Shown in pieces: positions 3,770 through 59,700 of a DNA stretch of 64,000 nt. The translations under genes were made by a program, and so were the position numbers. Under the pieces are notes generated by a model. It was given only the letters and a program-made list of their open reading frames with translations. It was not told where the DNA came from and did not search any database. Positions within the stretch are counted from its first letter, which is position 1; each line of letters opens with the position of its first letter. Source of the DNA: a virus (lineage: Duplodnaviria > Caudoviricetes); the IMG/VR virus record IMGVR_UViG_3300038679_000357, positions 128,001 through 192,000 of that record; one strand, given 5' to 3'.

Positions 3770-3985
3770 TTATTCTGATACGATATGATCGCCTTCCCAA
3801 CTTGAGAAACCAACCATAAAATACTGGCGACCGTCGCCTACTTGTTGAATATCGACGTTCAATGAATCTGCCGCTGGAGTATTGACTTCAGAAAACCTAT
3901 TTACTTTATACGATATGGCGTCTCCAACCGACGGAAAATTCTTTTCCACGATTCGTTTGATTACATTTTCGATATTATACGCCAT
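3770..3985 (-). CDS. Small hypothetical tail-region protein (71 aa)
   Basis: Fills the gap between two large tail genes; GGAGG Shine-Dalgarno upstream of ATG. Confidence 0.6.
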   Translation of the reverse strand: MAYNIENVIKRIVEKNFPSVGDAISYKVNRFSEVNTPAADSLNVDIQQVGDGRQYFMVGFSSWEGDHIVSE

Positions 3986-43822: not shown

Positions 43823-44352
43823 TTTTTCTCTCCAATAAAAACATCAAATATACTGTCGGAAACAACAACTTCCTGAATTTTTGTATCTTTTTTCTTTTTT
43901 CTACTCGAAGTAGACAGTATTTCTGGAGAAACCAATGGTAATGAGGCAGGCTCTGATTGAGTTTTTTCACATACCGGTTCATTATTTTCTTCTTCCTCAT
44001 CATCTTCTCGTCTGGAACGTCGATGAGATTGAATCGGAGTATGAACTGGTAGAGGCTCTTTGCATTTTTTCTCAGGCTTCGGTAGGCGAACAGCATCCTT
44101 TGAAAAGTAAGCGCTCAATTCTATCATATTATCCATTGGAACAAAACGAGCAAGCCGAGGTTGACAAGAACATGATGACAGACATGAATAAATTGTATAC
44201 TCCCCTTCATCCGACTGCAGCAAAACATAAACAACATCGCTTTTTACCGTAGATTCAGAGATAGCCGCTATCCTCCCGGCGGTAAATGGATCTGAGTTAC
44301 TAGCCCCTTTCTCGTAAAGGTAGTCTCCGATTTTACAATCAAGAATCTTCAT
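43819..44352 (-). CDS. Hypothetical protein (177 aa) with charged C-terminal tail
   Basis: Likely start MKILD at 44352 with GGAG Shine-Dalgarno, downstream of its own promoter. Confidence 0.55.
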   Translation of the reverse strand: MKILDCKIGDYLYEKGASNSDPFTAGRIAAISESTVKSDVVYVLLQSDEGEYTIYSCLSSCSCQPRLARFVPMDNMIELSAYFSKDAVRLPKPEKKCKEPLPVHTPIQSHRRSRREDDEEEENNEPVCEKTQSEPASLPLVSPEILSTSSRKKKKDTKIQEVVVSDSIFDVFIGEKK

Positions 44353-44378
44353 TTTCGTCTCCGCTCTGGAAATATCGG

Positions 44379-44406
44379 AATATATGCGCACAAGCAATTC
44401 GTACAA
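44379..44406 (-). promoter_or_regulatory. sigma70-like promoter TTGTAC-16-TATATT
   Basis: Immediately after the capsid terminator; same architecture as 20287 and 36374. Confidence 0.5.
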
Positions 44407-44419
44407 GCCAAACGAACAC

Positions 44420-44453
44420 AAAAACAAAGCCCCCGCAGATAACTGCGGGGGCT
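44420..44453 (-). terminator. Rho-independent terminator after the major capsid gene
   Basis: Perfect 11-bp stem AGCCCCCGCAG-TTAT-CTGCGGGGGCT followed by TTGTTTTT. Confidence 0.85.
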
Positions 44454-44493
44454 TCTCAGACCGGTAAACCGGTCTTAGAGGTTCAAAACCTCA

Positions 44494-45360
44494 TCACGAA
44501 CCGCTGGAAACGACGACCTTGGCGCAAGCGTAGCTGTTAACCACGACAAAGCCAACTTCTTCGTAAATAACCCAGCCGAGACGAATACGGGACGGGTCGT
44601 CTGCCGGAAGGACAGTGATGTCCTGACGGATAGGCATTGCACCGAGATACTCGGCAGGAGCCAAGACGAACACGGTGTCGGTCGCCATCCTGGAGCTGAC
44701 GTGAATGTCGGCGGTCCAGATGTGCCCGAACAGACCAGTCGTCAGAACCTGACGGGTGGTCGCTTCGTCGTAGACGGTCTTGCCCCAGTTCCTGATGTCG
44801 ATGTAGCGGAATGCATGGCAAACCACTTTACCAACGGTCAGGTCGTGCTGCTCGACCAATCCGAAAGCCTGATTAAGAGCGGTGATCGAAAGCGCACCAC
44901 CAGTGCTGAGCACGGTGTGGTCTGCATCGATAGCGGCATTGATGACGCTGAAGATTTCAGTGTCTTCAACCTTGGCAATTGCTTCTTTCGCCTTGATCTG
45001 AGCGCGGTCGACAATGAAGAACCTACGAGCCTTCACTTCGGACAAACGAACAGTCGGGTGAGTTGCAATTTCGAACGTCGGGACAAGGATTTCCTCGCCT
45101 TCTTCAACCAACTGGGGAACTCCACCGCGACGGGAGATCTTCCAGGCGTTAGCCCGGACATCTTTCTCGTAGCGAGCATAAGCGCCCTGCGGCAATTCAT
45201 CAACCATGAGGAGCTTACGTCCAACCGCCTGGTATTCCAGTGCGCGACGGATCGGCTCGACCATGGCTTGAGCAAGAGCAACACGTCCACCCTCGGATTC
45301 CAAGGACTGGGCGATCAGGATTTCACGCTCCTGATTGACGGACTTTTTATCCATTGACAT
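44494..45360 (-). CDS. Major capsid protein (HK97/encapsulin-like fold, 288 aa)
   Basis: ALAQAMVEPIRRALEYQAVGRKLLMVDELPQGA...EILVPTFEIA...GWVIYEEVGFVVVN; GC-richer codons, GGAAGG Shine-Dalgarno, strong terminator, position after protease and decoration genes. Confidence 0.85.
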   Translation of the reverse strand: MSMDKKSVNQEREILIAQSLESEGGRVALAQAMVEPIRRALEYQAVGRKLLMVDELPQGAYARYEKDVRANAWKISRRGGVPQLVEEGEEILVPTFEIATHPTVRLSEVKARRFFIVDRAQIKAKEAIAKVEDTEIFSVINAAIDADHTVLSTGGALSITALNQAFGLVEQHDLTVGKVVCHAFRYIDIRNWGKTVYDEATTRQVLTTGLFGHIWTADIHVSSRMATDTVFVLAPAEYLGAMPIRQDITVLPADDPSRIRLGWVIYEEVGFVVVNSYACAKVVVSSGS

Positions 45361-45376
45361 ATGTCACCTTCCTTGA

Positions 45377-45880
45377 TTATACGAGGAGTTTGAACTCGAT
45401 GTACTGGTTGTTGTTATCGCCACTGAGAGCCATGTCACCGTTGATATCGGTGCCAGGAACTCCGGACGGGTACAGACCGGCAGCACGGGTAAGAACTGCA
45501 ACGGCATCACCAGAGGAAGTAGCCTGAAGCTTTCCATTGGCAGAGCCGTAGAGCTTAACTCCAGTGAGGGCGGACTCAACGTCAGACTCGAACTGATCGG
45601 TAGCAAATTCGCCACCGCCAGAGTAGACGGTCATCTCGCCAGAAGCGCCAGTTTCGTTGTACATATCGGATGCGCGATTCTGCCATCCGGCGTCAACACC
45701 CGGCATGCCGGATGCGGACTGGGACTTTGTGTCGCCTGCCACGCCGAGAACAACTCCGCTACCATTGAAAGGAACAATTTCTCCGCTGTCATTCAATTTG
45801 ACAAGCTGTCCTTCAGTGATATTGGAACTGCCAATCGGGTGGGTGGCGGCCACGACAATATATTTTTCCACAAGTGCCAT
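45377..45880 (-). CDS. Capsid decoration / cement protein (167 aa)
   Basis: Directly upstream of the MCP; GQLVKLNDSG..VLGVAGD...GEMTVYSGGGEFATDQF...GVKLYGSANGKL beta-tulip-like pattern. Confidence 0.7.
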   Translation of the reverse strand: MALVEKYIVVAATHPIGSSNITEGQLVKLNDSGEIVPFNGSGVVLGVAGDTKSQSASGMPGVDAGWQNRASDMYNETGASGEMTVYSGGGEFATDQFESDVESALTGVKLYGSANGKLQATSSGDAVAVLTRAAGLYPSGVPGTDINGDMALSGDNNNQYIEFKLLV

Positions 45881-46047
45881 ATTAAGGACTCCCGTTTTCT
45901 TACCATCATCCTCACGATGAAGATGATTTGGAACATTGAATCAAATAACTTGCTACGATGATATAAACATCTATTTAGACATTCTGATTATCCCTATACC
46001 AAGCAACTATAGGGATTTCCTCTTTTTAAGAAGAAGATTTTTCACAA

Positions 46048-49000
46048 TCACAAATGGAGAAGAGCGGCGTACGGTCCATTTACTTCCGTCTTAACTTCAT
46101 TTCTCTCTTCCTGTAGCTTATTGAGAAGATAATATGCTGACGCCATAAACTTCTCATTCCACAGGTCTGTCTGTAACTTTGGAGCTGATTTTGTAGTGTT
46201 AGATACGTCAGTTGCCACATCTTTTGGATCAGACTTAACAACAGACTGATTCAAATCAACTGGAGCTGATTTAACTGGCTCGCTAACAGCAGGGGCTACT
46301 GGCATCGGCACAGAAGACGGAGCAGCAGGCGTCATTTTGGCTTGTTGCGCAAATCTAATGCGATTTGAGAATAGTGGGATATAACTAGACTTAACTTTAG
46401 TTAACTTTGCAACCTCTCTATCAATCTCTTCCTGTAAATCTTTTTCAATATCCGTATCAACCAACTTAGAGCCCTTCGATGATTCATCTGCATTACTTGA
46501 TGATGGATAAGTCTCTGGTTTTTCGTCAAAGTCAAAATCACCAGTCGGAATTTCCGGAACGCTCACATCAACATCATCTGAACTAACATCTTCAACCGGT
46601 ACTGTTGTCTCATCTTCAACAGGAAGTGATTTATCTACCAGATTATCTTGAACGTCTTTCTCCACAGCAACCTGATCTTTTTTATCGATGTTGTCCTCAA
46701 CATCAATAAAAGAAGTTATTCCGCTAATCAAAGAGTTCTTGTAAGCTTTTGCTTCCTCAACCGTATTAAACTTAGTTAAAACGATATCTTCGTCTTTCAA
46801 TTTCTTCGAATTCAACCAAGATATCATTTCTGGAGTTGGCTCGCCAGTGTGAATGTTAAAGTCAGACAATCCAAGAGCTAGTCCTTTTGATTGAAAAACC
46901 TCCATTTTCTTCTTCTCATTTTCTTCTTCAAATCTATCAATGTCAGTTGATATATCAGAAGACTCACTGCAAGCCAGAACAAGAGAAGATATTCTTCCAC
47001 ACGAAACAACAGAAAGAAGTCTACGACACATTGTCGTCAACCATCTTGGATTTGAAATTTTAACAGCCCCACGCAAGTATGAATCTGAAACATTTGGAAC
47101 ATGCGATTTAATGACGTTTTTATTTTGAGATACAAAGCGCACGATATTGGTAAAACACAAATTGAATTTTTCAAACACCAACGCCACCTGATCTGGCGAT
47201 TTTACGCCCTTCATGTTTGAAACAGCAGAATTTTTCTCGTTAATTAGCTCACTCCTGTAACGAGAAAACTCAGATAAAAACTTTGACACAAGACGACAGC
47301 TAGACACGCCTGATAAATTTTTCCCATTCAACACACCTATAATTTCATTAACTTTTGAATTGTATTCGCCATCAGTTAATGAAAGTGTATGATCAATAAT
47401 AGACATGATGTATTTATTTTCATTCACCGCACCAGGCAATACTACTAATACAGACTCTCCATTCGCCACGTTAGATACAAGAGGAGTGGACAAGGTTATC
47501 AATGCAGATGGATTTCCAGTGGCTGAAGAAACAACATATAGTGAATTTGCTATACGCAATTTTTCACCACTTGAAATAATTCGTTTAAATCCACTGACAT
47601 TAATAGAGGTCTCACCAGCTTTGTGTCCGTTAGGGCTAGAAATCATTCCAACAGCCTTAGATCCCATTGAATCAACACCAGAAGAAACGCAATCAACGAT
47701 ATATTTTTTATCTTCCTTAGAAAGAAAGACGTCATACGGCAAAGACAAATCCTTTGACGATGAAATGGCGCGAAGAGCCATCCAACCATCTCTTGGTTTT
47801 GGTACTTTTGCTGCTTGATCAGCCAACACTGGATCATTAGCAAATTCTGGAGGGACTGTATTCCATTCCGATAAATTTACCGCATGCCATAAATTTTGAG
47901 CATTTAGCGGTAATGCGCCACTCACTCCAGAAAGGAAATCTCGATGAGACCGCAACATATTCGTCACAAAACCATTCAAATCTCTTATACCAGTACGAGG
48001 ATGAACACGTCCCTTTGAGTCTGGCTCCCAATTCATTTTCTCCATCATTCTATGACATATCATGTCCAAGTATGAATAATTTTTACCTGGCATATTTACG
48101 TCCATTGATTGGAATATTTTCTGAGCCTCAATAAATCCATCAAGAAAATCATTAACTTTGTATAGATATGGATCTTTCCCTTTTTCTGGTTCAATAGAAA
48201 AACCAGCAGTTGACATAAAACTATCTCGATTACTCTTTGGGAAAATAAACCCGCTCTTCATGACATCAGGAGCTATAGACTCTATTTTCTTTGCTAAATC
48301 AATAAGCATTTTTTCATCGTCAGATCGTCTAGCTGCGATCATCAATTTTATCGTTTCTGCAACAACATTATTATCTGTCATCGCCGTGACAGTATTATTG
48401 ACGATCGTGTCGGTTTTGAACATCTTTTTCAAGCTTTCAAAATCTGTTGGGACTTCAACTTCATAGCTTCCGCCAATGGCGTTTATTCGACTAAGGAATG
48501 GAGAAGCTCCAGACTCTTTCGAAAACCACTCTGGACCTTTATTACTTGTGAACACAAAATAAGTACCGTTTACGGCGTACAACCCCTTATCCTCTTCAAG
48601 AGTTTGCATGAGAGCTAAATTAATATCCCTCTGCATGGACCCATCCATTCTACTTTCGCCTTCAAAAACTTTATTTAACTCATCAATAAGAATGACGGTA
48701 TTTCTACAATTACGACAGTAGGCAAAGAACTCCTGAAGATTATTTTCGCTCTGTCCACGGAACATAGTATCACGACCGGCAGAAAAAACCTCATTCATGG
48801 TACACATATTGAACCGGAGGTCAAATGAATTTGCCAGCACATCCGCAAAAATTGACTTACCAGATCCAGCAGCACCATAAAGGAAATAAGCAGTTTTTAC
48901 GTTTCTCTTTATGGATGAAACGTTTTGTCTCTCAGCATCAATTTGCCTTCTCACTACAGCGATCATTCGATCATGATCACTATTAGAATAGGTCCCATCA

Positions 49001-51927
49001 TTTTGAGGATTATACTCTCTTACAGTAATCCTTCCGTCAAATATGTCTTTGAATTTTGAAAGAAAATCTGCTGACAGTTTAGGGGAAGACAATACGCCGT
49101 TACTCATTTTCAATAAAACAGCAGACCTTCCAGTCGATTCAAATACCGTCTTAACTTCCTTGTTTAGAGTAGATGCTGCGACAGGAACGATACCGCAATC
49201 ACACAGACGGCAAAGAACATCAATCTTTGTTTTTGCAGCTTGATAATCATCAACCAACGACCCAAACTCACTTATTACATAATTTGACCACGTACTTTGT
49301 TCCTTGGTCAAATATTCTACAGGCTTAATTACCGGAGCCTTCGCCTTTACGTTTAACTTAGACAAAGTAGACATGTCGCTAGTCACTTCAAACAAAGCGT
49401 CTTTTATGGACATTTCATTTGAGGTAATCATTTTATCGACATCGCCATTTGCACTAATGAACGAATCAAACAATCTTTTGATTTGCACATTAACAAACTC
49501 TTTTGCCCTAAATGATGACATTCCGGCTAACTCATCCTTAAACTTCCAAGCAAAAGTTTCTGGAAGGAAGAACGATTTTGCAATATTCCTTTTCTCTTCA
49601 TTAGTTTCCGTCTTCACATAGTTACTTATCGCTCTTCTGGAGAAAATATTAATATACTCTCCGACTTCTTTGTCAGACAACAGAAATGCATCAACATAAA
49701 CAATTCCAATCGAAACTGTTTCAGATATATCATTTGGCATAGCTGATTCAGTAACGATAAATATGTGAGATCGATCAAGTTTGTTATCACGAACTTTTGA
49801 ACTATAAGAATTCAACATCTCTTGAAATTTTTGGCTAATAGCCATCTCTTTCTTTTTGGTTGATGAATTTTCAACCGCTGATACCAATCCATTGCCAACC
49901 ATACTTGCGCCAGCCCCATCAATACCCTTTATTACAACAGCAGATGGAGATGAGGTGCTTTCAAGTCCATATTTTTTTCGAATACTTGATACAATTGATA
50001 AGAAATCTTTTTTCTGATTTTTAGGAATTATTTCAAGTAGTGATGACTCATTTATAACCCCACCAAAGCGAGGTACATTCAGTCCGCGCTTTATGCATTC
50101 GTCAGAAATTTCATCGTTCATCCATTGTGGATCTTTTAAATTATAGCGCAAAAGCGATCCAGAGGCGTCGTACTCACCGCCATTATCAACCGGAGTCGCC
50201 CATTCATTGGTTTCTGACATCTTCTCCATAAACTTACTTATCTCACCAATTTCCCGAAGAAGATGTTCAAGCGCACAGCTATACAACCCTGAATTTTTCC
50301 GGTCCAATTTCTTTCTTTCCTCAAGATATTTTTTTGCCTTGAGTCTCTTTACTAATGCTCGGTTGACTTGATATAAATTATTTCCGCCGCCAACATGATA
50401 TGGAATCTTATCTCTGTAATCATACAAGTCAGGAGCCCAATTCGGAAGTGGTCCGCGATTAATTTTTATTCCGTATTTCTTTTGAACCTTTAAGATATCT
50501 TCTCTATGATCTTCGTACTCCTCAGAATAAATATCTGCTCCATCTGCAATCTCAAATGTAACTTTCCCATGATTACGAGTACGCTCATTAAGACGATCAT
50601 AAAGCTTAGATCCGCTAGAGACAACAAAATTAATGTAGTCATTACCACGAACTGCTCCAGTATAATAACATGTACCATCTGGAATCGCGCCGCCACTTAA
50701 CTGCTTATGTTCAACAGGAAGTTTAGATACTCCAGGCACGCCGATACTTCTTATGGATTCTGGATGAGAAATATCATAACTACTGACAACCAAATTTATT
50801 GGAGACGTTTCTCCAATGCCTAAAGACCAGGAAGCATCAACTGTAACACTCGTTAGCTCAGACGCTCGCTCGAAAAGAGACTTACTCTTATCCATTCTTG
50901 AACTGCTACCAACGTACTCAGAAATTGCATGAGTAACTTCCAGATCATTTTCTTCTCCGTCAGCACTCATTGGTAGCTTAACGTTTCTTGCTATGTCGAG
51001 ATAATTAGGGTCTGATACATTTTTTTTAGGGCGAGCAGCTACCTTAATTAAATCTTGCGAGATTTTAGATGCAACTGTAGTGTCTGGTGAAACTCGATAC
51101 GGTAAAAAAGACTTGTCAATAGTCCCATTTATAACACTCATTTCTCTACGTACATCTGCTACAGCAGCTTGAGAAAGACCGCCAGATAATTTCCACGACT
51201 TTCTTTTTTCATTAGCCTTTGTTTCAACATCTACTATTTCAATTCCCTTGACCGACCGACAAAGATATGTATACGACATTGGATTATCTGGATTGTATAC
51301 AATATCATTGCTTCGCAAGCTTGGCATTGCTGATAAAATCAACTCCTCAGTAATCGGAGCACCTGAGCCACCCTCGGAAGCGGCGGAAAGAACTCGCTCA
51401 GCATCCTTCTTAAATTCAGATACAACCATGTTATGTGGACTAAGATGGTTAAACATGGGGGTTCCGAAAATTGATTTACTTACGGCAGCTACATTCTTCT
51501 TTTCATGGTCGGGAATATTTACTCCACTACCAACCGTAACCTCGTCAACTATCGCTTCAGAAGTGCCTTTATTTATATTTACGTCAGTGTCATGAACGGA
51601 TGAATTTATAATATACTTAACGATTGAAGCGGCTGGTTCAGAATTATATCCGGGGCAAACTATATTTATGATTTTTCTTCCACTAGAAATATTCCATTTT
51701 GCATCAGCAATACACCTGTCGTATTTACCAGTTGACACAAGTGAACGGAACTCTTCATCAGAAGAAGCCATTTTATTAAGAACGGTTCTACCTGTTTCAC
51801 TTGCCTTGGTTAATAAATCCGCTGGTATATTTAAACGGCTGGGGCGACGCTCGTCAGCATTAGCGACGACGCGCCTCCCCATAGCCTTACCAACGGACCG
51901 TCTCAGGCGTCGCTCAAAGCTACTCAT
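46048..51927 (-). CDS. Giant protein (1959 aa) with a central AAA+ ATPase domain
   Basis: Walker A YGAAGSGKS (about 48853-48880), FRGQSENNL, Walker B VILIDE, sensor-1 FTSN, Arg-finger-like PFLSRIN; acidic C-terminal tail. Confidence 0.8.
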   Translation of the reverse strand: MSSFERRLRRSVGKAMGRRVVANADERRPSRLNIPADLLTKASETGRTVLNKMASSDEEFRSLVSTGKYDRCIADAKWNISSGRKIINIVCPGYNSEPAASIVKYIINSSVHDTDVNINKGTSEAIVDEVTVGSGVNIPDHEKKNVAAVSKSIFGTPMFNHLSPHNMVVSEFKKDAERVLSAASEGGSGAPITEELILSAMPSLRSNDIVYNPDNPMSYTYLCRSVKGIEIVDVETKANEKRKSWKLSGGLSQAAVADVRREMSVINGTIDKSFLPYRVSPDTTVASKISQDLIKVAARPKKNVSDPNYLDIARNVKLPMSADGEENDLEVTHAISEYVGSSSRMDKSKSLFERASELTSVTVDASWSLGIGETSPINLVVSSYDISHPESIRSIGVPGVSKLPVEHKQLSGGAIPDGTCYYTGAVRGNDYINFVVSSGSKLYDRLNERTRNHGKVTFEIADGADIYSEEYEDHREDILKVQKKYGIKINRGPLPNWAPDLYDYRDKIPYHVGGGNNLYQVNRALVKRLKAKKYLEERKKLDRKNSGLYSCALEHLLREIGEISKFMEKMSETNEWATPVDNGGEYDASGSLLRYNLKDPQWMNDEISDECIKRGLNVPRFGGVINESSLLEIIPKNQKKDFLSIVSSIRKKYGLESTSSPSAVVIKGIDGAGASMVGNGLVSAVENSSTKKKEMAISQKFQEMLNSYSSKVRDNKLDRSHIFIVTESAMPNDISETVSIGIVYVDAFLLSDKEVGEYINIFSRRAISNYVKTETNEEKRNIAKSFFLPETFAWKFKDELAGMSSFRAKEFVNVQIKRLFDSFISANGDVDKMITSNEMSIKDALFEVTSDMSTLSKLNVKAKAPVIKPVEYLTKEQSTWSNYVISEFGSLVDDYQAAKTKIDVLCRLCDCGIVPVAASTLNKEVKTVFESTGRSAVLLKMSNGVLSSPKLSADFLSKFKDIFDGRITVREYNPQNDGTYSNSDHDRMIAVVRRQIDAERQNVSSIKRNVKTAYFLYGAAGSGKSIFADVLANSFDLRFNMCTMNEVFSAGRDTMFRGQSENNLQEFFAYCRNCRNTVILIDELNKVFEGESRMDGSMQRDINLALMQTLEEDKGLYAVNGTYFVFTSNKGPEWFSKESGASPFLSRINAIGGSYEVEVPTDFESLKKMFKTDTIVNNTVTAMTDNNVVAETIKLMIAARRSDDEKMLIDLAKKIESIAPDVMKSGFIFPKSNRDSFMSTAGFSIEPEKGKDPYLYKVNDFLDGFIEAQKIFQSMDVNMPGKNYSYLDMICHRMMEKMNWEPDSKGRVHPRTGIRDLNGFVTNMLRSHRDFLSGVSGALPLNAQNLWHAVNLSEWNTVPPEFANDPVLADQAAKVPKPRDGWMALRAISSSKDLSLPYDVFLSKEDKKYIVDCVSSGVDSMGSKAVGMISSPNGHKAGETSINVSGFKRIISSGEKLRIANSLYVVSSATGNPSALITLSTPLVSNVANGESVLVVLPGAVNENKYIMSIIDHTLSLTDGEYNSKVNEIIGVLNGKNLSGVSSCRLVSKFLSEFSRYRSELINEKNSAVSNMKGVKSPDQVALVFEKFNLCFTNIVRFVSQNKNVIKSHVPNVSDSYLRGAVKISNPRWLTTMCRRLLSVVSCGRISSLVLACSESSDISTDIDRFEEENEKKKMEVFQSKGLALGLSDFNIHTGEPTPEMISWLNSKKLKDEDIVLTKFNTVEEAKAYKNSLISGITSFIDVEDNIDKKDQVAVEKDVQDNLVDKSLPVEDETTVPVEDVSSDDVDVSVPEIPTGDFDFDEKPETYPSSSNADESSKGSKLVDTDIEKDLQEEIDREVAKLTKVKSSYIPLFSNRIRFAQQAKMTPAAPSSVPMPVAPAVSEPVKSAPVDLNQSVVKSDPKDVATDVSNTTKSAPKLQTDLWNEKFMASAYYLLNKLQEERNEVKTEVNGPYAALLHL

Positions 51928-51951: not shown

Positions 51952-54900
51952 TTATTCCAATTCGCCAGACTTGATGTACTTGTCTGATTGACGGCTTCCA
52001 ATAGTGAAATGAGAAGCTATTTTCTCAGTCAAGCTTTGCGCCTGATTCTTATTCTCTGGCATACCTTTATCTTCGATTACAACAGGAGTGGTCAAGGTAG
52101 AAGCTGTCTTCACGGTTTTGCCGGAATTCATCTTCGACGCCATTTTTTCCTGTTTATCGAGAGGCATGGTGGACAGAAGATCTACCATATCATCGTACTC
52201 AGACTCAACGATACTTCCATTGCCGAGCATGGTCGCAGCAATTTTGATCGCTTTGTCTCGTCTGGCGGTAGCAATCTTGGAACGATGTTCTTCGAGATTG
52301 GCAGTAACCCTGGTAGTCACTTCAACCTTTTCTGCGTCTTTGTGAGGAGCAGTTGCTTCTTCGCCAGAAGGAATGGAAGATTTTTCATCCCCCATCATAG
52401 CACCATCGCCCTTGCTTGGAACAACAGGTGCTTTTTCTTCGACTGGTTTCTCATCACCCATCGTCGCCTTGCCACGCGAAACGCAATCGCACTCAGATAT
52501 CGGCTTCGCTTCTCCAATAGAATCGCCAGCCGTTACAACGACTGTAATTCCATCAGAACCAGTAGAGGTTGACGAAGTGGCGATATTCCCCGTAATGGAG
52601 GTATTAATATCACCCTTTTTCTCTTCCTCTCCAAGATACTGAACCTTAACTGGGATTACGACCTCATCAGTCGATTTCGGAGCCGCTTCCTTCTCGTTGC
52701 CGAGATATCCATCGTTCTTGGCTTTCGGAATTTCCGGAGCCTTATCGGCTGGAGTAGTGTCCTTCTCCTCTCCCATCATAGCCTTACCGGATGGAATCTT
52801 TGCTTCGTCCTGCAGAAGCTTCTGAACAATCTTCTTGGTCTTCAACTTGTCAGTTTTGACCTTAACTTCATCACATGCCTTCGCCTTTTTTTCGGTTTTA
52901 GCGGTAGCGACACCATCTTCGACCTTCAAATCAGCGATGTTGGTTTCGTCGTCAGAGATCTGCTTCTCTTCGTTAGCTGTTTTCACAGCCTTACTTGGAG
53001 CAACATAACCAGCCATACGGCGCATAACACCTTTACTGAACATACCAGCAAAAGCTTCCATATAGAGGTTTTCATCTTCCTCTGTCTTGAAGCGTTCCTT
53101 GATACAAGCGCATACGTGCTTGGCGCGTTCCTCAGACAAACCGCTCTGACGTTTCTGCAACTTCACACATTCATCCATCGGATCAGCCTTGGTCTGAACT
53201 TCGCAAAGGCGCTTCATGTGCTTAACCTTATCAAGCCCGAAGGTTGAAAGCTGCTTGACAACTGTGTCAGCAAGTTTCTCTCCCTTAAACGGACCGTAGG
53301 ACACAACAGCATCTTTACCGTAGTTTTTAGCTACCCAAGCTTTAGCAGAAGCAACTGGGAATTGAGCCTTAGATGCAGACTTAATCATACGACCAAAGGC
53401 AATATCAGTTGCGAAAGCCTTCCGTGCCTTATTGCAAGATGCGCATTTACGCTTGGAAGGTTTCAAATTCCACTCAACCCTCATCTGTACGTTTTCTGGC
53501 GAATTCGTATCGATGATCAAATCACGCTGACAATGAGTTCCACAAGACGCGCATTTGGTAACATGCGAGCTTGGCTCGCCTTCCGCCGCTTGTTCGCGTC
53601 CACATCCAGGGCAAGCTACCTTGCCTTCACTGAACGCTTTAACAACGCGCCCAAATACCTGTTTATCAACCTTTACGGCTGCTGCAACAGGCATTTCCGG
53701 AAGTTCTGGCTCTTCCATACCATCTTCTTTCTTAGCGTTGTTAAACAACTCTTCAGGATTGAGGATGTCAACGTTGACGTGCATGATGTACTTCGCGCCA
53801 CAGTTATTGCAGTCGAACTGACCGGCATTCTGATCCTTACGACCAGTTTCAGTGTCATCCGCACCGCAAATCGGACAGATCGTGCCTGCCATCTTCTGCT
53901 CGTCGCCAGGAATATCTTCCTCTTCCGACACATCGTCAGTAAGAGTCTGAACGCCACCTTCTTCCGGCATAGCTTCTGGAGCCATGGCACTAGTATCTTC
54001 GGGAGCGGCTACACCGCCACCAGCATTAGGAACGCCAGGAGCACCACCGCCAAACTGAGCGGTCTTTACCTTTTTCTTTGTAGCTGCCATGCCAAGGATA
54101 TCATCAACCGACGTTTTTCCGGGAGCAGAAGCTCCTGGAGTAGACGCAGCACCCAACGCAGGAGCGGCAGGAGCTGGGGCAGGTGCTTCTGGGGCAGGGG
54201 TAGGAGCAGGGGCAGCCATGTCTTCAACACCTGCATCACCACCAAGATCTGTATCAAGGGAGGTGTCTTCCTTCACAGAAGACTTATCTCCGATAGGAAT
54301 TTCAACAGACTCTCCGCCATCAGTTTCTACGGCTATCGTAATGGTCTCACCATCAACAGTTACGTTTACCAAGCTGGCAAACTTCAAGCCACTCTGCTTA
54401 CATGCGGCACGAGCAAATTTGGACGCGATAATATTTCTATCTTCTTTAGACTCCTTACCAGTCAAACCAACCTCAGCCGCAGTCGCCTCAATCATATGAT
54501 CAGCAGCAACCACCTTATTGGACTTAATGTCAGATGCGATTGTTTTCGCTTCTTCCAATTGAGTTTTTGCACTGAAGAATGAATTGATCTGTTCAGTCAT
54601 TGAAGGTTCAAGATTCTCAGTAGGCACAGAAGCCTTGGCGATAATCTGATTAACCTTTTCTTCAACCATGTGCGAAGCGCTATTTGCAACAACCGCATGG
54701 AAGCACTCTACCAAGCACTCAGGATTCAACTCACCAGCCTTAATGGCTTCGGACGCATAAGACACGAGAGCGTCGCGAATGGTCATAGAAGACTGAGACT
54801 TGACGCCTTTTTTGCCCCAATACCCATTTCTTGATGCAAGCGTGACGATATCTTCAGATTTCGAATTATCATTCCACATTTCATAAGCAAAAGCCAATTT

Positions 54901-56799
54901 TGTACTTGACGTTCCGCCAGAGAAGGAGCAAGCTGCCTTCATAACTTGCTCTGGCGTGCTGCCACTGGCAACAACAACCTTGGCAAGAATGTCAGTGCTG
55001 GCTTCCACATGCTTTTGAATGGAAGAGGCAGAGCGAGCCCATGGAGTCTTGCTAAGCTGCTTCTCAGTTACCACGTCTTGTTCTTTGCCAACGCGATCAA
55101 CTTCCAATTGAGATTCCATAACGGCATCAGCTTCTTTACCAGTACGGGGTAGATCACCCTTATCAAGCTGCTTTTCAGTGATAACTTCAGTTGACTTTCC
55201 AGTACGGGACAAATCACCTTTTTCAAGTTGCTTTTCAGTAATGTCAGAAATGTCCTTACCATCCCTTTCTTTTTCAAGCTGTTTTTCCATTACAACATCA
55301 GCTTCTTTGCCTGTGCGAGAAGATTCGAGTTGTGCTTCGTTCGTCTCGTGGAGATCGGCACCCTTGGCTTTTGCCTCCACATTCATTCCCTTAGACATGG
55401 CTTGACCTCCACTTGTCGTTAGATCTTTATTAATAGCTTCTGTGAGATTGTTACTGAAAATTTTCAATTTCTCCTGCCAATTACCATCAAGAACTTCTTT
55501 TGTCCTCTCTCTGTCGCTTGCAGATTTAATTGGCATGCGCCTCATTTCGTCCTCCGTTTGACTCTTTTTAGGCTTGATCGGTCTGGTCAGTTGACTCTTC
55601 GCAGCCGGTCTTGTAGCTTCTTTGAAATCACTTAATGCCGAAGGAGCCGACGGAGGCTCTACAATAGGTTTTTCTGTATTTGTTGTTCCAGCAATATCAG
55701 CTTCTTGCGAAACGGGCTGGGTAGCAGGAGCGCCAGGAGCTGGAGCAGGAGCTGGAGGCGCAGACTGATCAGGAGAAACTCCAGGAACAGGCTGTCCAGA
55801 GGACTCAGGCAACTGACCATAACCAGCCTGCACTAGCTGGTCTACGAAATCCTGCAAACTTGCAAGAATTTCAACAAGATCGCTGGCAAACTCCATTTCA
55901 ACATTAGCACGATTCTGAATCAATTTAACAGAAACTTGTTCAATTGTCGTAAGACATTGATTGAGTTGTTCTACGTCTTGCTGAGAAGCATTCTTTTCAA
56001 GTGACGCGGTACGAACAACGGAAATGTTGTTGTAGCACGTAGAAGCAGCCTTAACAAGACTTTCGTACGATCCAGCAGCCTTGTCCTCACAGCCACATTG
56101 CCCAAACTCGCTGCCATCATAAATCTGATCAATCCTGCAACTCGTACACGCAGGATCGGCAACGCCACTTAGTTCAATAAAGCGCAAGTCATAATTGTGT
56201 TCAAAAACCAACTCAGCTTTAACTTCGCGAGTTTTTCCGGTTCTTACATTTTTCACAGATCCGGTAAACTTACGCCCTTTAAAGTTCTTGATATGTGAGC
56301 AATATTCGTCAACAGTTGATGCCCTATTACCACACAGCGAACATTCAGAGTAGCCGACAGACGCCCCCATACTGACGCCAGTCATATACTCTTGTTCTAT
56401 TCCACGGCACAAATTCGGATATGCGTCTCGATCAACAAACGCCACTACATAAACAGACTTCTCATCTTCAATCCATTCCGCCCATACAATCTTACCTTTT
56501 GCGCGTTCTATATTTTGATTATCATGATTAGTGAAGAATGGCACGCCAACAAATGTTTGATAACTTTTCTTCAACTCTGAAGCGGAAAAAGAGTCGCCAT
56601 TGTTATTGGGAATATCAGCCTCGATCGCCTTGGCGCGGAAAAAAAGAGCATTTTTATGCTTCTTCATTTCTGCAACGATTACATTTCTCGCTTCGTTTTC
56701 AATCCCCTTTTTAGAAGATGCTGTTCTAATGAAGCCACCTTCGTAGGATTCGACTTTGTCAATCGAAGTAAAAGAAAAACTAGCTGATTTGTTGATCAT
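51952..56799 (-). CDS. Prohead protease fused to a long scaffold/core region (about 1615 aa)
   Basis: N-terminal protease motifs NNNGDSF, PFFTNHD, KGKIV, GVSMG, CSLCG...YCSHI, FIELSGVADPA; then about 1350 aa of charged and Pro/Ala-rich sequence with Zn-finger-like CxxC pairs. Likely start MINKSAS. Confidence 0.85.
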   Translation of the reverse strand: MINKSASFSFTSIDKVESYEGGFIRTASSKKGIENEARNVIVAEMKKHKNALFFRAKAIEADIPNNNGDSFSASELKKSYQTFVGVPFFTNHDNQNIERAKGKIVWAEWIEDEKSVYVVAFVDRDAYPNLCRGIEQEYMTGVSMGASVGYSECSLCGNRASTVDEYCSHIKNFKGRKFTGSVKNVRTGKTREVKAELVFEHNYDLRFIELSGVADPACTSCRIDQIYDGSEFGQCGCEDKAAGSYESLVKAASTCYNNISVVRTASLEKNASQQDVEQLNQCLTTIEQVSVKLIQNRANVEMEFASDLVEILASLQDFVDQLVQAGYGQLPESSGQPVPGVSPDQSAPPAPAPAPGAPATQPVSQEADIAGTTNTEKPIVEPPSAPSALSDFKEATRPAAKSQLTRPIKPKKSQTEDEMRRMPIKSASDRERTKEVLDGNWQEKLKIFSNNLTEAINKDLTTSGGQAMSKGMNVEAKAKGADLHETNEAQLESSRTGKEADVVMEKQLEKERDGKDISDITEKQLEKGDLSRTGKSTEVITEKQLDKGDLPRTGKEADAVMESQLEVDRVGKEQDVVTEKQLSKTPWARSASSIQKHVEASTDILAKVVVASGSTPEQVMKAACSFSGGTSSTKLAFAYEMWNDNSKSEDIVTLASRNGYWGKKGVKSQSSMTIRDALVSYASEAIKAGELNPECLVECFHAVVANSASHMVEEKVNQIIAKASVPTENLEPSMTEQINSFFSAKTQLEEAKTIASDIKSNKVVAADHMIEATAAEVGLTGKESKEDRNIIASKFARAACKQSGLKFASLVNVTVDGETITIAVETDGGESVEIPIGDKSSVKEDTSLDTDLGGDAGVEDMAAPAPTPAPEAPAPAPAAPALGAASTPGASAPGKTSVDDILGMAATKKKVKTAQFGGGAPGVPNAGGGVAAPEDTSAMAPEAMPEEGGVQTLTDDVSEEEDIPGDEQKMAGTICPICGADDTETGRKDQNAGQFDCNNCGAKYIMHVNVDILNPEELFNNAKKEDGMEEPELPEMPVAAAVKVDKQVFGRVVKAFSEGKVACPGCGREQAAEGEPSSHVTKCASCGTHCQRDLIIDTNSPENVQMRVEWNLKPSKRKCASCNKARKAFATDIAFGRMIKSASKAQFPVASAKAWVAKNYGKDAVVSYGPFKGEKLADTVVKQLSTFGLDKVKHMKRLCEVQTKADPMDECVKLQKRQSGLSEERAKHVCACIKERFKTEEDENLYMEAFAGMFSKGVMRRMAGYVAPSKAVKTANEEKQISDDETNIADLKVEDGVATAKTEKKAKACDEVKVKTDKLKTKKIVQKLLQDEAKIPSGKAMMGEEKDTTPADKAPEIPKAKNDGYLGNEKEAAPKSTDEVVIPVKVQYLGEEEKKGDINTSITGNIATSSTSTGSDGITVVVTAGDSIGEAKPISECDCVSRGKATMGDEKPVEEKAPVVPSKGDGAMMGDEKSSIPSGEEATAPHKDAEKVEVTTRVTANLEEHRSKIATARRDKAIKIAATMLGNGSIVESEYDDMVDLLSTMPLDKQEKMASKMNSGKTVKTASTLTTPVVIEDKGMPENKNQAQSLTEKIASHFTIGSRQSDKYIKSGELE
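52380..52800 (-). repeat. Five imperfect protein repeats ([ML]G[DEN]E[KE]...P) near the scaffold C-terminus
   Basis: GKAMMGEEK, GYLGNEK, QYLGEEEK, GKATMGDEK, GAMMGDEK. Confidence 0.7.
55050..55350 (-). repeat. Six tandem 16-19-aa repeats (E[KSA]QL...R[TDV]GK) in the scaffold region
   Basis: NEAQLESSRTGK / MEKQLEKERDGK / TEKQLEKGDLSRTGK / TEKQLDKGDLPRTGK / MESQLEVDRVGK / TEKQLSK. Confidence 0.85.
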
Positions 56800-59700
56800 T
56801 TTTCCCCTCTTTAGGTCCAATCATCTTTTTGATCATTCTTGTGACTTCCATGGATTCGCTCGTTTTTCCTGCTTTAGCCAGAGTAATAGAAACACCAGCC
56901 ATTCTCAATAACGCTTCCTTCATTATACTACGAACTCTTCCAGACCCGCCGAAGATATTAAATATATCCTCTTCATCTTCATCCGTTACACTAGTAGACG
57001 TCTCAGGAGGCTGTTGAGCTGTCTGTTGCGTTGCTGGCGAAACAGTTGACTGAAGAGGGATTTGCTCAACTGCCTGTTCGTCATCTTCGTATGCGTTATC
57101 ATACTCATCATCAGCAAAAAATGACTGAGGTTGAGATTCATCATCAATCTGAGTGACAACTTCTTCTCCTGTCTCTGAAACAGGAACATCGACTGTTTGA
57201 ACTTGGTCTTCCACAGAAGATTGATCTTGCCCATCCACCACAGAAGGTTGATCTTCTGTGGAAGGTTGAATTTCTACAGAAGATTGATCTTGCCCCTCCG
57301 ACATTGCTGGTATTTGTTCTTCCGCTGATTCATCCCCACTACGAGGCTCAACAGATCCAATCTCGCCATCCAAGCTTTCATTGAATGACATTCCATCTCC
57401 AACTCTATTAACAACGTCATTTTTGCCACCAGCACCTGGAATGACGCTACTTACCTCACTAGCATTGGTATTCAACGCTGTAGAAGCAACTTCATCAATA
57501 ATATTATTAATCAACCCTCTTTTCATGTCGCTGAAAATCAATCTTATTGCATCTCTTTCCGCCGACTCTTTGCAAAGTACGATTTTTGAAGTGATAGGGT
57601 AATATTCAGGATTTTCCAGTGCAGACGACATACCAGATGTCTTGAGATTACTGTAATCAGTCTCAAGACCAGTACCGATCATTAAAAACGAAATCAACGA
57701 CTCGTCACCACGACTTGGGCTAGAAAGATTAAGAGAAAGGAAATCAACAATAGGAACATGTCGTACTTCCATCTCCCCGCTCACCTCTCTTTCCACTGTA
57801 TATGTTGGTTGCTCATTCCTCCACCAAAAACCTTTTCTACTAACGACTAACGGCAATATATTATATAATATGCCTCTTGCGTCATCGATATCGCTTAACG
57901 AACGATACTGTTGGTTGACATACGAATCATTGGACGCTTCCTGAGCCCAAATGCCTCTAGTGCCACGAGACTGTAGAGACTCATTGTTGGCAAAAGAAAA
58001 ACTAACGTCACCGTCATTAGAATAACGCGCCTTTATTGGGCTTTCTCCATAAAAGCCACATGCAATAAACTTCAAAAACTCACCGTATGTAGATTCGCCA
58101 GTTATTGCCGTATCTATAATTGGCTCAAATTCAGACTCTTCATCCTTTCCTATAGAATTTTTTTGATCATTATTTATGCGATCAGGAGTTTTTCCAGAAC
58201 CTACCGACGGATCGTAATCAGGAAGAGAAAACGATGATTTTGCTACTGAAAAAGCTTGATTAACTAACTTGTTGTAATTTTTAATAGACAACGATATGTC
58301 GCCAATTCTAACTGGATAATAGACAACAGGAGTTCTTCCGCCAAGACGTCTTTCAAAATAAACGCCTGGAATAATATCTGAACCATCTTTTATTGATTTG
58401 AGCTTATCGATAGAAAATGATTTTTTTGTCTTTTTCCCACCAATAACAATTGCATCGTTCGGCAACTCAGTAATACCGCCAGTTGCCGGTGGAAAATATC
58501 CTTTTTTAACGAACAATTCACCCCCAACAACCCCATTCAAAAGCAATTCAGTTACATTAAGCCCCTCGTAATCCCCACCAATTTTTTCTTTTTCTTTTTC
58601 ACGAGTAGCAATTGCTCTAACTACAGTGCTGGAGTGAGCATCTACAAGGTGTCCACTCAGTGAGCTTGAACTTATTAGATTGTCGTCATCCGCCGTAGAC
58701 ATAAATGTAGCGCACGCTGGGTTATCTATCCTGTTTACTTTGTTTCTTCTATCGCTATATTCAGGCGAATTAAGACAATAATCAGCTATAGCCTCAAGAT
58801 CATCTATATCGATAGTATATTCAGTCTTCTTATTTTTCTCACAATGTAGTCTCAATGAATCGATTGCCGACATTGCTCCACTTGCCTGACCGCCATTTTG
58901 ATCCGAGTCTTCATGGAATACTTCTTTGCTTCCCTTGATGATATCAAGCAACAACCCACGATACACATGCGGTGAAGTAGTTTTAAGTTTCCATTCTTCC
59001 CCCATGGTATAGCGAAGGGCGAGCAATGCTCCTTTTTTAGTAAAGACAACATTTGGAGATATGGCGTCATTGCTAATAGACGGAATTATATTTGACAACA
59101 TTGAATTAGATTGCCAAAAAATACTATTGGCAGATTCATCTTGACAATATTTTTTCTTAAACTCGTCGATGGAAATGAATGAATATTCACTCCCGTCATA
59201 ATCCTCACTCAATTTATTGGCAATGTCTTCTCTGTTATTTTTACGACTAGAACTTATGACGTCTCTTACCGTCGATATCTTTGGCTTCAAAACCAGATTA
59301 GAAATCAACGAATTATCGATCGGGTCTTTTCCCGGAAGAGATAAGCGACCAAAATACCAAGAGCCAAGAGTTTCTAAAAATCTACGTACCTGTTTGCCGC
59401 TCTTCGCCTTTAAGAACTTCGTGCCTTCACGAGAATATGCCGCTGGTATTGCTTCATACAAACAACGAGAATAAATATGTTTTTGTATGCGAAATTGTTT
59501 TATGAATTCGTCGAATTGTTCTTTTGGACGAGCGTTTAAACCATCTGTAACGTTCGATTGATTGTCTGGATCAAGTAAATTTTTAGATGAAAGATAAGCC
59601 AGCATGTCTTTTTCAAGCTTACTTACCTCTTCTTCTATATTATTAACATTTGAAGAAACCATTCTTTTAGCCATTATCGACACATCAGATGGTGTCACTG

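What the first reader, a model, noticed from the sequence alone, without database searches (positions are those of the whole stretch)
46048..51927. 1959-aa AAA+ ATPase between prohead protease and capsid genes
A classical-clade AAA+ module (Walker A/B, GQSE pore-region motif, sensor 1, Arg finger) is flanked by about 1000 and 750 aa of unknown sequence plus an acidic tail with an RIRFAQ motif. Known head operons of HK97, T4 and phiKZ types have no such gene at this position, and it is not a terminase-type ATPase. AAA+ proteins do assist contractile injection systems (Afp15/Pvc15) in loading cargo. It may be a cargo-loading or scaffold-remodelling unfoldase, or an injected machine.
Basis: partly seen in the sequence, partly recalled or inferred. 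Interest (0 to 1): 0.7.

Follow-up and report, generated by a model that had tools for sequence, protein, structure and literature searches.

The report
Giant AAA+ ATPase in phage-head operon
One branch of uncultivated giant phages related to Bacillus phage G has gained a 2000-residue protein with an intact ATP-driven protein-unfolding motor, placed between its capsid protease and capsid genes; it probably ends up inside the virus head, and no described phage head gene resembles it.

Summary
ORF 46048-51927 (minus strand, 1959 aa) carries one classical-clade AAA domain at aa 1015-1130. Walker A, the F-R-G pore loop, Walker B, sensor 1 and one Arg finger are invariant in 22 diverged relatives.

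It lies in a 255-kb phage-G-like genome, in the order portal, 1443-aa protein, protease-scaffold polyprotein, AAA giant, decoration protein, major capsid protein (MCP). The only strong terminator follows the MCP gene.

An AlphaFold model of aa 478-1405 (pLDDT 81) shows a probable degenerate AAA-like domain followed by the active AAA module. It is closest to Ycf46-type and Cdc48/Rix7/Pex6-type ATPases. The flanking regions match nothing known.

The gene keeps this position in all nine AAA-bearing loci with a complete MCP. Those nine form one clade in the MCP tree. It is absent from 80 related IMG/VR loci, five complete sister genomes and phage G, so it looks like a single late gain.

The Lys/Arg-x-Ala motif that punctuates the neighbouring protease polyprotein recurs at conserved places in the AAA family.

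Best reading (about 0.4): a protease-trimmed protein inside the head, delivered to the next host. Main rival (about 0.3): a prohead-stage loader or unfoldase. Neither packaging nor cleavage has been shown.

The scan has not noted this family on other DNA.

The parts
46048..51927 (-). Whole ORF, 1959 aa (P0001), the AAA+ giant
51823..51927 (-). Basic N-terminal leader, aa 1-35. In 11 of 20 full-length relatives the leader ends in a [KR]-x-A-[AQS] motif. This copy has only the near-motif GKAMG.
51043..51810 (-). Conserved N-domain, aa 40-295 (motifs GRKIINIVCPGY and NDIVYNPDNPMSYTYLC). No match to any known family.
51031..51051 (-). Candidate protease site LIKVA|AR, aa 293-299. The close relatives have LMRVA|SI and MVKLS|AI at the aligned place.
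50413..50454 (-). Near-invariant linear motif GPLPNWAPDLYDYR, aa 492-505, in a low-confidence (probably disordered) stretch of the model
49297..49947 (-). Probable degenerate AAA-like domain ('D1'), aa about 661-877. It has no Walker A lysine.
47833..48915 (-). Active AAA module ('D2'), aa about 1005-1365: large subdomain plus an extended helical lid
48853..48876 (-). Walker A, GAAGSGKS, aa 1018-1025 (K1024 invariant)
48745..48765 (-). Pore loop 1, MFRGQSE, aa 1055-1061 (G1058 invariant; R1057 and E1061 in at least 90% of sequences)
48679..48696 (-). Walker B, VILIDE, aa 1078-1083 (D1082 and E1083 invariant)
48487..48549 (-). Sensor 1 (TSNK, N1129) through the Arg finger (PFLSR, R1147), aa 1127-1147
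47383..47655 (-). Insertion of about 90 aa, aa about 1425-1515, absent from the two closest relatives
46423..46725 (-). Acidic, low-complexity region, aa about 1735-1835
46342..46389 (-). Conserved C-terminal element SSYIPLFSNRIRFA|QQ, aa 1847-1862. It corresponds to 'S-T-D-Y-Y-Y-K-I-A' in relatives and carries the candidate protease site.
46051..46347 (-). C-terminal tail, aa 1861-1959: a Pro/Ala-rich spacer, then an amphipathic helix, a G/K-x-P turn and a hydrophobic end. This layout is kept family-wide. It may be a docking element; the partner is unknown.
51952..56820 (-). Upstream neighbour: protease-scaffold polyprotein, 1622 aa. Head maturation protease at the N-terminus, and about 10 conserved [IV]-[KR]-[ST]-A-[SQN] motifs.
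56780..61111 (-). 1443-aa head-module protein. Its conserved 125-aa N-domain is followed by TIKTA|MG. The 1300-aa extension had no match (BLASTP, E 1e-5) in the 10 kb upstream of the MCP gene in the AAA-less IMG/VR relatives; they have a free-standing ORF of about 150 aa.
61108..63465 (-). Portal protein with a C-terminal DUF559 nuclease domain
45377..45880 (-). 167-aa protein in the position of phage G's capsid-decoration gene gp26, directly before the MCP gene
44494..45360 (-). Major capsid protein, 288 aa, 57% identical to phage G gp27
44426..44455 (-). The only strong intrinsic terminator of the block (13-bp stem, 9 G-C pairs), just after the MCP gene

Best explanation
The gene encodes a lineage-specific protein that sits inside the phage head. 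It is made late from the portal-to-capsid operon and built into the prohead.

There the prohead protease probably trims it at up to three places:
- after a short N-terminal leader;
- between the N-domain and the ATPase core (LIKVA|A, aa 297);
- about 100 residues before the C-terminus (RIRFA|Q, aa 1860).

The processed core has a degenerate AAA-like domain followed by one active classical AAA domain. It would stay in the capsid and enter the next host cell with the DNA. In that cell it would form a ring and use ATP to thread and unfold proteins through its F-R-G pore loops. The substrates could be host proteins or the co-delivered giant phage proteins.

Shown here: the gene, its intact and conserved ATPase residues, its fold, its fixed position in the head operon, its single origin, and the positional conservation of the motifs.

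Inferred, not shown: packaging, cleavage, ejection, ring formation and the substrate.
For: 1. All catalytic and pore-loop residues are invariant across 22 relatives of 19-49% identity, so the motor is under selection. Classical-clade assignment: Pfam AAA, and a family profile scoring E 1e-18 against Cdc48, VAT, NSF, Msp1, Vps4 and katanin.

2. The model (pLDDT 81) matches Ycf46-type ATPases (TM 0.64 by target, 369-378 residues aligned). It also matches the two-domain ATPases Rix7 (Z 15.0), p97, NVL and Pex1/6 over model residues about 110-890.

3. The gene sits between the protease polyprotein and the decoration and MCP genes in every AAA-bearing locus: window, L001, L003, L009-L016. The gap to the protease gene is 24 nt. 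The only strong terminator follows the MCP gene.

4. The [KR]-x-A-[SQA] motif recurs about 10 times at conserved places in the protease polyproteins. It also follows the N-domain of the upstream giant.

5. In the AAA family the same motif is positionally conserved inside otherwise variable sequence:
- in the N-terminal leader of 11 of 20 sequences, against 2.0 +/- 1.3 expected; 0 of 2000 random draws reached 11;
- 60-135 residues before the C-terminus in 12 of 23, against 4.9 +/- 1.9 expected; 2 of 2000 draws reached 12;
- at a third site between the N-part and the core in 11 sequences.

6. From established knowledge and abstracts seen here: tailed-phage heads carry internal or ejection proteins, and giant phages cleave many head proteins with the prohead protease (PMC7697877 and PMC7552025; PMC5694885). 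A preprint reports a SpoVK-like AAA ATPase in phage G particle proteomics (10.1101/2024.12.16.628780).
Against: - No proteomic, structural or expression data exist for this uncultivated clade.
- The cleavage specificity of the protease is itself only inferred.
- This particular copy lacks a canonical motif in its N-terminal leader. It has only two canonical sites.
- With a hydrophobic residue required upstream, the C-terminal enrichment is not significant: 6 of 23, reached by 120 of 2000 draws.
- An ATPase has no fuel inside a filled capsid, so any activity must come before packaging or after ejection.
- A protein of about 1500 residues would have to unfold, pass through the tail, refold and hexamerise. 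That needs at least six copies per virion.
- No AAA ATPase appears among the internal or ejection proteins described in the papers searched.
Confidence: 0.4

Rival explanations
1. It is a prohead-stage assembly machine that works in the producing cell. Either it loads or threads the giant cargo proteins into the prohead, in the manner of Pvc15 in contractile injection systems. Or it unfolds scaffold and polyprotein fragments so that they can be degraded or expelled before DNA packaging. It may be cleaved and discarded, or stay in the particle as a bystander.
For: - Same operon position next to the protease-scaffold gene, and the same candidate protease motifs.
- ATP is available in the producing cell.
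- Pvc15 is a classic AAA ATPase that loads signal-tagged payloads into a phage-tail-like particle (abstracts of PMC11495950 and 10.1101/2023.08.15.553202).
- Iyer et al. 2021 propose MoxR-vWA and BCS1-type AAA+ chaperones for jumbo-phage virion assembly (PMC7824862).
- The 1300-aa extension of the upstream 1443-aa protein had no BLASTP match near the head genes of AAA-less relatives, so that protein could be a dedicated substrate or partner.
Against: - Sister lineages with equally large protease-scaffold polyproteins (1760-2470 aa) and near-identical MCPs build heads without it. Scaffold removal as such therefore does not need it.
- A loader that works from outside the prohead would not be expected to carry a leader and tail bounded by protease-type motifs.
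- Known capsid-targeting systems such as the T4 CTS need no ATPase (established knowledge).
Confidence: 0.3
2. It is a non-virion accessory protein that merely resides in the head operon, like a moron. It would be a late-expressed AAA+ remodeller acting in the infected cell, for example against a host defence or on host proteostasis. On this reading the Lys/Arg-x-Ala motifs have nothing to do with the protease.
For: - Single late gain by insertion, clade-restricted.
- Fast divergence: 19-49% identity, against 77-93% for the MCP.
- Lower G+C (0.37-0.40) than the neighbouring head genes (0.47-0.51).
- Weak domain-level similarity to the anti-phage ATPase IetA/IteA, at 17-28 bits.
- Free-standing Ycf46-type AAA proteins of unknown role are common in phages.
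Against: - It stays at exactly one place, between the protease and capsid genes, in all descendants. There is no promoter or terminator signal of its own above background.
- The motifs are positionally conserved at domain borders.
- The IetA/IteA scores are far below the family cut-off of 510 bits and cover only the P-loop core.
Confidence: 0.17
3. It is a nucleic-acid motor that pulls the very long genome into the cell or organises it in the head. It would act as a helicase or translocase rather than as a protein unfoldase.
For: - Pfam RNA_helicase (the SF3 P-loop family) also matches aa 1015-1129, at E 1e-6.
- DnaA, DnaC and clamp-loader chains appear in the fold list at Z 11-12.8.
- Genomes of 255-500 kb might need help to enter the cell (inference).
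Against: - The AAA match is stronger than the helicase match.
- The family profile hits only protein-remodelling classical AAA proteins at the top.
- The pore loop aligns residue for residue with the Cdc48 substrate-threading loop.
- DNA-clade folds score below the classical ones.
Confidence: 0.05

Closest known systems
Ycf46-type AAA ATPases (cyanobacterial and plastid Ycf46, and free-standing phage homologues such as the one in Pseudomonas phage SM1)
   Same: This is the best fold match when normalised by target: TM 0.64, 369-378 residues aligned, rmsd 4.5-4.8 Å, over model residues 49-891. The top three BFVD hits are phage 'ycf46' proteins. The layout is the same: a non-catalytic N-terminal domain followed by one classical AAA domain.
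   Different: Ycf46 proteins are 450-575 aa and free-standing. This protein is 1959 aa. It adds a 480-aa N-region, a 560-aa C-region, candidate protease sites and a head-operon address. No sequence-level family membership could be shown. The function of Ycf46 itself was not established from any source consulted here.
Type II classical AAA+ unfoldases: Cdc48/p97/VAT, Rix7/NVL, Pex1/Pex6
   Same: These are the best sequence relatives of the AAA domain (E 1e-18 with the family profile). The pore loop, Walker motifs, sensor 1 and Arg finger all align. Two-domain structural alignments cover 377-418 residues (Rix7 Z 15.0).
   Different: Only one active ATPase domain is present; the first lacks a P-loop lysine. 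The score is 20 bits against the CDC48 model's cut-off of 803. The rmsd is high (5-9 Å) for the two-domain alignments.
Pvc15/Afp15, the AAA ATPases of extracellular contractile injection systems
   Same: Each is a classical AAA ATPase encoded inside the structural operon of a phage-like particle, and linked to payloads that carry N-terminal signals (abstracts).
   Different: Pvc15 belongs to a tail-like particle without a head and loads the tube lumen. It is much smaller. It is not reported to be a protease substrate. No Pvc15 sequence was at hand, so no direct comparison or phylogeny was made.
Protease-processed internal and ejection proteins of large phages (T4 IPI-III and Alt with their capsid-targeting sequence; phiKZ and SPN3US inner-body and ejection proteins)
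   Same: They are encoded with the head genes. They have short leaders or linkers ending in the prohead protease's motif, diverge fast and are often very large (PMC5694885, PMC7552025, PMC7697877; T4 from established knowledge).
   Different: None of those described carries an AAA+ motor. The motif here is Lys/Arg-x-Ala, not Glu-based. Presence in the virion is unproven.
MoxR-vWA and BCS1-type AAA+ chaperones proposed for jumbo-phage and archaeal-virus virion assembly (Iyer et al. 2021, PMC7824862)
   Same: These are AAA+ proteins tied to virion morphogenesis in large phages.
   Different: They belong to different AAA+ subfamilies, have ordinary size and sit at other genome positions. BCS1 scores lower in the fold list (Z 10.8-11.3).

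Membership tests
Classical AAA clade (Pfam PF00004 AAA) | Profile match above the curated cut-off | tested here: met
   45.2 bits against a cut-off of 21.2. All 22 family members match, best E 8e-19.
Classical AAA clade (Pfam PF00004 AAA) | Walker A GxxGxGK[ST] and Walker B hhhhDE | tested here: met
   GAAGSGKS and VILIDE. G1018, G1021, G1023, K1024, D1082 and E1083 are invariant in 22 sequences.
Classical AAA clade (Pfam PF00004 AAA) | Pore loop 1 (aromatic-x-Gly) followed by the ESE-like helix between beta2 and alpha2 | tested here: met
   MFRGQSE aligns with MAGESE and WYGESE of Cdc48 D1 and D2. G1058 is invariant; R1057 and E1061 are in at least 90% of sequences.
Classical AAA clade (Pfam PF00004 AAA) | Sensor 1 Asn/Thr, and a second region of homology with Arg finger(s) | tested here: met
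   N1129 and R1147 are invariant. Only one Arg is conserved, where many classical members have two.
Classical AAA clade (Pfam PF00004 AAA) | Forms a hexameric ring and hydrolyses ATP | not testable with these tools
This needs biochemistry or cryo-EM.
CDC48/p97 family (NCBIfam TIGR01243) | Two active AAA domains plus the N-domain; whole-protein score above the cut-off | tested here: not met
   20.3 bits against a cut-off of 802.65, on the AAA core only. The first domain has no Walker A lysine.
Tandem (type II-like) AAA architecture | A second AAA-fold domain directly N-terminal of the active one | tested here: inconclusive
   Rix7, p97, NVL, 55LCC and Pex1/6 align 377-418 residues over model residues 101-888, against 220-260 residues for single-domain ATPases. 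But the Z scores are not higher than for single domains and the rmsd is 5-9 Å. Foldseek alignments run to 700+ columns at TM 0.24-0.28.
Ycf46-type AAA ATPases | Non-catalytic N-domain plus one AAA domain, with the same overall fold | tested here: inconclusive
   TM 0.64 by target (Atlas). The top BFVD hits are named ycf46. No sequence model of the family was available to test membership.
Pvc15/Afp15 eCIS ATPases | Encoded in a contractile-injection (tail-like) operon; sequence kinship | not tested
   No Pvc15 or Afp15 sequence or model was at hand. The gene context here is a head operon.
Prohead-protease-processed head-internal proteins | Gene lies in the head morphogenesis operon | tested here: met
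   Order portal, giant, protease polyprotein, AAA, decoration, MCP in the window and in the other AAA-bearing loci (L001, L003, L009-L016). Single terminator after the MCP gene.
Prohead-protease-processed head-internal proteins | Carries the protease's cleavage motif at conserved, accessible places | tested here: inconclusive
   The motif is positionally enriched in the family and matches the recurring motif of the protease polyprotein. But the protease's specificity has not been shown by experiment, and this copy lacks the N-terminal site.
Prohead-protease-processed head-internal proteins | Present in proheads or virions | not testable with these tools
   The clade is uncultivated and no particle proteomics exists.
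Anti-phage ATPase IetA/IteA | Whole-protein score above the curated cut-off | tested here: not met
   17-28 bits against a cut-off of 510. PADLOC E values of 1e-4 cover the P-loop core only.

The most novel reading that the evidence does not exclude
A phage capsid stores and injects a complete ATP-driven protein unfoldase: a Ycf46/Cdc48-like ring freed from a 2000-residue precursor by the head protease. In the newly infected cell this machine dismantles host proteins, or refolds or activates the co-injected giant phage proteins. It would be the first AAA+ motor known as a virion-delivered effector.
Probability: 0.3. Interest if true: 0.85.

Novelty: new variant of a known kind. Interest (0 to 1): 0.62.

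Why it matters
Phage heads are known to carry internal proteins that are cut by the head protease and delivered to the host. As far as I could find, no such protein contains an energy-driven protein-remodelling motor, and no head operon has one as a fixed member.

This family would be either the first virion-delivered AAA+ machine or the first ATP-dependent step inside head assembly of a tailed phage. Either would bear on an open question: how giant phages load, store and deploy very large protein cargo.

The family also gives a gene context to the orphan Ycf46-type ATPases. It is a clean natural experiment as well. Sister phages with near-identical capsid proteins lack the gene, so its contribution could be isolated once a member of the clade is cultured or rebuilt in parts.

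Tried and rejected
- tblastn of the whole protein against 50,697 phage records gave no match.
- Pattern scans of IMG/VR with the protein and with the alignment found no relative. The metagenome scan added one partial locus, L003.
- The word-indexed homologue search gave only two near-length relatives, and none among shorter proteins. The exhaustive profile search was what revealed the family.
- The first AlphaFold run, on a 3-sequence alignment, was too poor to use (pLDDT 53).
- The N-domain (aa 40-295) had no Pfam hit, no language-model hit and no PDB profile hit even at E 10. The C-region had no Pfam hit.
- The language-model search with aa 1-990 gave only weak AAA-like leads (score 0.84, below the reliable range).
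- BLASTP of the AAA giant and the protease polyprotein against phage G gp21, and of the upstream 1443-aa giant against gp15, showed nothing significant.
- The protease domain had no PDB sequence relative.
- BLASTP found no paralogue of the protein in its own genome.
- Complex prediction of the C-terminal tail with the MCP returned no verdict. It says nothing either way.
- I first read the 361-aa ORF before the L010 orthologue as a natural split at the N-domain border. I rejected that reading: it is one reading frame interrupted by a single TGA.
- A phylogeny against Pvc15 and Vps4 was not made, for lack of named sequences.
Full report
**1. The observation**

ORF 46048-51927 on the minus strand encodes 1959 residues. 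It starts at an ATG 24 nt after the stop of the preceding gene.

Pfam AAA (PF00004) matches residues 1015-1130 at E 1.6e-11. A search of solved structures puts Cdc48/p97/VAT first. Residue by residue, GAAGSGKS aligns with Walker A, MFRGQSE with the substrate-threading pore loop, and ILIDE with Walker B.

The flanks of about 1000 and 750 residues, the acidic stretch and RIRFAQ (1856-1861) are all there.

**2. Where it lies**

The window is bases 128001-192000 of a 255,142-bp virus record. The 288-aa major capsid protein (MCP) at 44494-45360 is 57% identical to gp27 of Bacillus phage G.

Reading along the minus strand, the order is:
- portal with a DUF559 nuclease tail (61108-63465);
- a 1443-aa protein;
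- a 1622-aa polyprotein whose N-terminus is a head maturation protease (51952-56820);
- the AAA giant;
- a 167-aa protein in the position of phage G's capsid-decoration gene gp26;
- the MCP.

The only strong terminator on that strand follows the MCP gene (44455-44426). Promoter-like and terminator-like sites are otherwise at background level. I infer that the gene is co-transcribed late with the head genes. No expression data were examined.

**3. The family**

Word-indexed searches found only two full-length relatives, at 45% and 40% identity. An exhaustive profile search with residues 1-1200 found about twenty further cluster representatives of 1450-2460 residues. They match from about residue 450 through the ATPase.

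In a 22-sequence alignment of the core (residues 478-1405, 19-49% identity to the query), the following are invariant:
- the Walker A glycines and lysine (G1018, G1021, G1023, K1024);
- the pore-loop glycine G1058;
- Walker B D1082 and E1083;
- sensor 1 N1129;
- the Arg finger R1147.

A profile of that alignment hits Cdc48, VAT, NSF, AFG2, Msp1/ATAD1, Vps4/CdvC and katanin at up to E 1e-18, always on the ATPase core alone. It is therefore a working classical-clade AAA motor under purifying selection. It scores far below the cut-offs of every named NCBIfam or PADLOC family.

**4. Architecture**

With the deeper alignment, AlphaFold gave a usable model of residues 478-1405 (mean pLDDT 81, pTM 0.67).

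Single-domain ATPases (FtsH, Vps4, spastin, Msp1) align to model residues about 376-888 at Z 12-14.5. Two-domain ATPases (Rix7 at Z 15.0, then p97, NVL, 55LCC and Pex1/6) align 377-418 residues over model residues about 101-888. Foldseek aligns 700 or more columns with Cdc48/p97.

Normalised by target, the best matches are Ycf46-type ATPases, including a mostly viral cluster (TM 0.64). The three best hits among predicted viral structures are phage 'ycf46' proteins.

So the core is most likely a degenerate AAA-like domain (about 661-877, with no P-loop lysine) followed by the active module (about 1005-1365). I rate the first domain as probable, not proven.

Around the core lie:
- a basic leader (1-35);
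- a conserved N-domain (40-295);
- a variable linker;
- a near-invariant, apparently disordered motif GPLPNWAPDLYDYR (492-505);
- a variable C-region with a 90-residue private insertion;
- an acidic stretch;
- a conserved C-terminal element and tail.

None of these matched any family by Pfam, PDB profile or language-model search.

**5. Distribution**

Every AAA-bearing locus with enough flank shows the same order. The protease polyprotein lies upstream in the window, L001, L003, L010, L011, L013/L014 and L015. The decoration and MCP genes lie downstream in the window, L001, L009-L013, L015 and L016.

The reverse test used the highly conserved MCP to fetch 80 IMG/VR loci of 58-79% MCP identity. 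None has an ORF matching the AAA core profile, while positive controls scored 827-1076 bits. In 72 of the 80, a protease polyprotein homologue was found. In most of these its ORF ends around position 9050-9360, just before the decoration gene, which leaves no room for another large gene.

Five nearly complete sister genomes (296-548 kb) contain only ordinary AAA proteins of 546-771 residues. Those match the P-loop core alone. Phage G and Tunturi_5 have small proteases and proteins of 486 and 528 aa at the corresponding place.

In a quick maximum-likelihood MCP tree, the nine AAA-bearing loci form one clade (SH-aLRT 97). That clade is nested among AAA-less loci, so a single gain suffices.

The gene is thus a late, single, clean insertion that was then kept at that spot. 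It has diverged far faster (19-49% identity) than the MCP (77-93%).

**6. Candidate protease sites**

The protease polyprotein carries about ten copies of [IV]-[KR]-[ST]-A-[SQN]. These are conserved in position among six orthologues. The upstream giant has one copy right after its conserved N-domain.

In the AAA family the looser motif [KR]-x-A-[AQSGNM] is conserved in position inside poorly conserved sequence, at three places:
- At residues about 8-31 of the leader in 11 of 20 full-length members. Random windows of the same proteins give 2.0 +/- 1.3, and 0 of 2000 draws reached 11.
- Between the N-part and the core in 11 members. In the query subgroup this is LIKVA|AR, LMRVA|SI and MVKLS|AI.
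- 60-135 residues before the C-terminus in 12 of 23 members (4.9 +/- 1.9 expected; 2 of 2000 draws). There it forms part of a 'TDYYYKIA' element, whose counterpart in this copy is SSYIPLFSNRIRFA|QQ.

Three caveats apply. The protease's specificity is inferred, not measured. This copy lacks a canonical leader site. The stricter form of the motif is not significantly enriched at the C-terminus.

**7. Mechanism**

I favour, at about 0.4, a protein that is built into the prohead, trimmed by the protease, kept in the capsid and delivered to the next cell, where the ring unfolds or remodels proteins.

For this reading:
- the operon address;
- the leader and tail bounded by protease-type motifs;
- the fast divergence typical of internal and ejection proteins;
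- the fact that sister phages assemble near-identical capsids around equally large scaffold polyproteins without it. That argues against an essential role in scaffold removal.

The main rival, at about 0.3, is a prohead-stage loader or unfoldase. It could be dedicated to the 1443-aa protein's extension, which had no match near the head genes of AAA-less relatives. Pvc15 is the functional analogue.

A non-virion accessory role (about 0.17) and a nucleic-acid motor (about 0.05) remain possible.

**8. Comparison and novelty**

The motor is a member of the classical AAA clade. Its core works like, and folds like, Ycf46-type and Cdc48/Rix7/Pex6-type ATPases. Membership in any of those families was either not met (CDC48 model) or could not be settled (Ycf46).

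I found no paper that describes an AAA ATPase among phage internal or ejection proteins, or as a fixed head-operon gene. The nearest published ideas are:
- the MoxR-vWA and BCS1 chaperones proposed for jumbo-phage assembly (PMC7824862);
- the SpoVK-like ATPase seen in phage G particle proteomics (preprint).

Earlier notes of this scan report other AAA subfamilies (CbbX/EccA type) beside giant head proteins in unrelated phages. I did not test those. If they hold, they suggest a recurrent theme. The scan has not noted this family on other DNA.

I class the finding as a new variant of a known kind.

Noticed in passing
L010:8915-15013 (stop at 9998-10000): In one relative the orthologous gene is a single reading frame interrupted by one in-frame TGA (caa TGA ttg). 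The gene caller therefore split it into 361 aa plus 1670 aa. It could be a sequencing error, a fresh nonsense mutation or read-through. It does not coincide with a candidate protease site.
   Followed up: partly
window 56780-61111 (-); L020-L099 around positions 400-3900: The conserved 125-aa N-domain of the 1443-aa head protein is a free-standing ORF of about 140-180 aa in most AAA-less relatives (one hit lies in a roughly 600-aa ORF). BLASTP at E 1e-5 found no match to the 1300-aa extension in the 10 kb upstream of their MCP genes. The extension may have arrived together with the AAA gene.
   Followed up: partly
window 46001-50000 against 44001-46000 and 52001-56000: The AAA gene has a G+C fraction of 0.37-0.39. 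The capsid and decoration genes are at 0.51 and the protease polyprotein at 0.47. This fits a foreign origin or a lower expression level.
   Followed up: no
window 50413-50454 (-), aa 492-505: The motif GPLPNWAPDLYDYR is nearly invariant across the whole family, yet it lies in a stretch that the model leaves disordered. It looks like a short binding motif for an unknown partner.
   Followed up: no
G000:C1:84553-85629 (-), 79554-79949 (-), 246835-247134 (+): The same phage genome encodes three further AAA proteins. One is 734 aa with two AAA domains; the others are 382 aa and 801 aa. BLASTP finds none of them to be a paralogue of the giant.
   Followed up: partly
window 44494-45360 (-) and alignment A6: The MCP is 77-93% identical across AAA-bearing phages whose AAA giants share only 19-49% identity. 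That is a striking rate difference inside one operon.
   Followed up: yes
L013:19129-20193 and L014:18475-19539: A LAGLIDADG homing-endonuclease gene sits directly after the MCP gene in the most divergent AAA-bearing lineage.
   Followed up: no
L018:1707-10690 and L019:624-7280: Two short contigs show the N-part of the family as separate ORFs of 868 aa and 537 aa, each after a 1420-1670-aa ORF. These could be real splits, frameshifts or assembly breaks.
   Followed up: no
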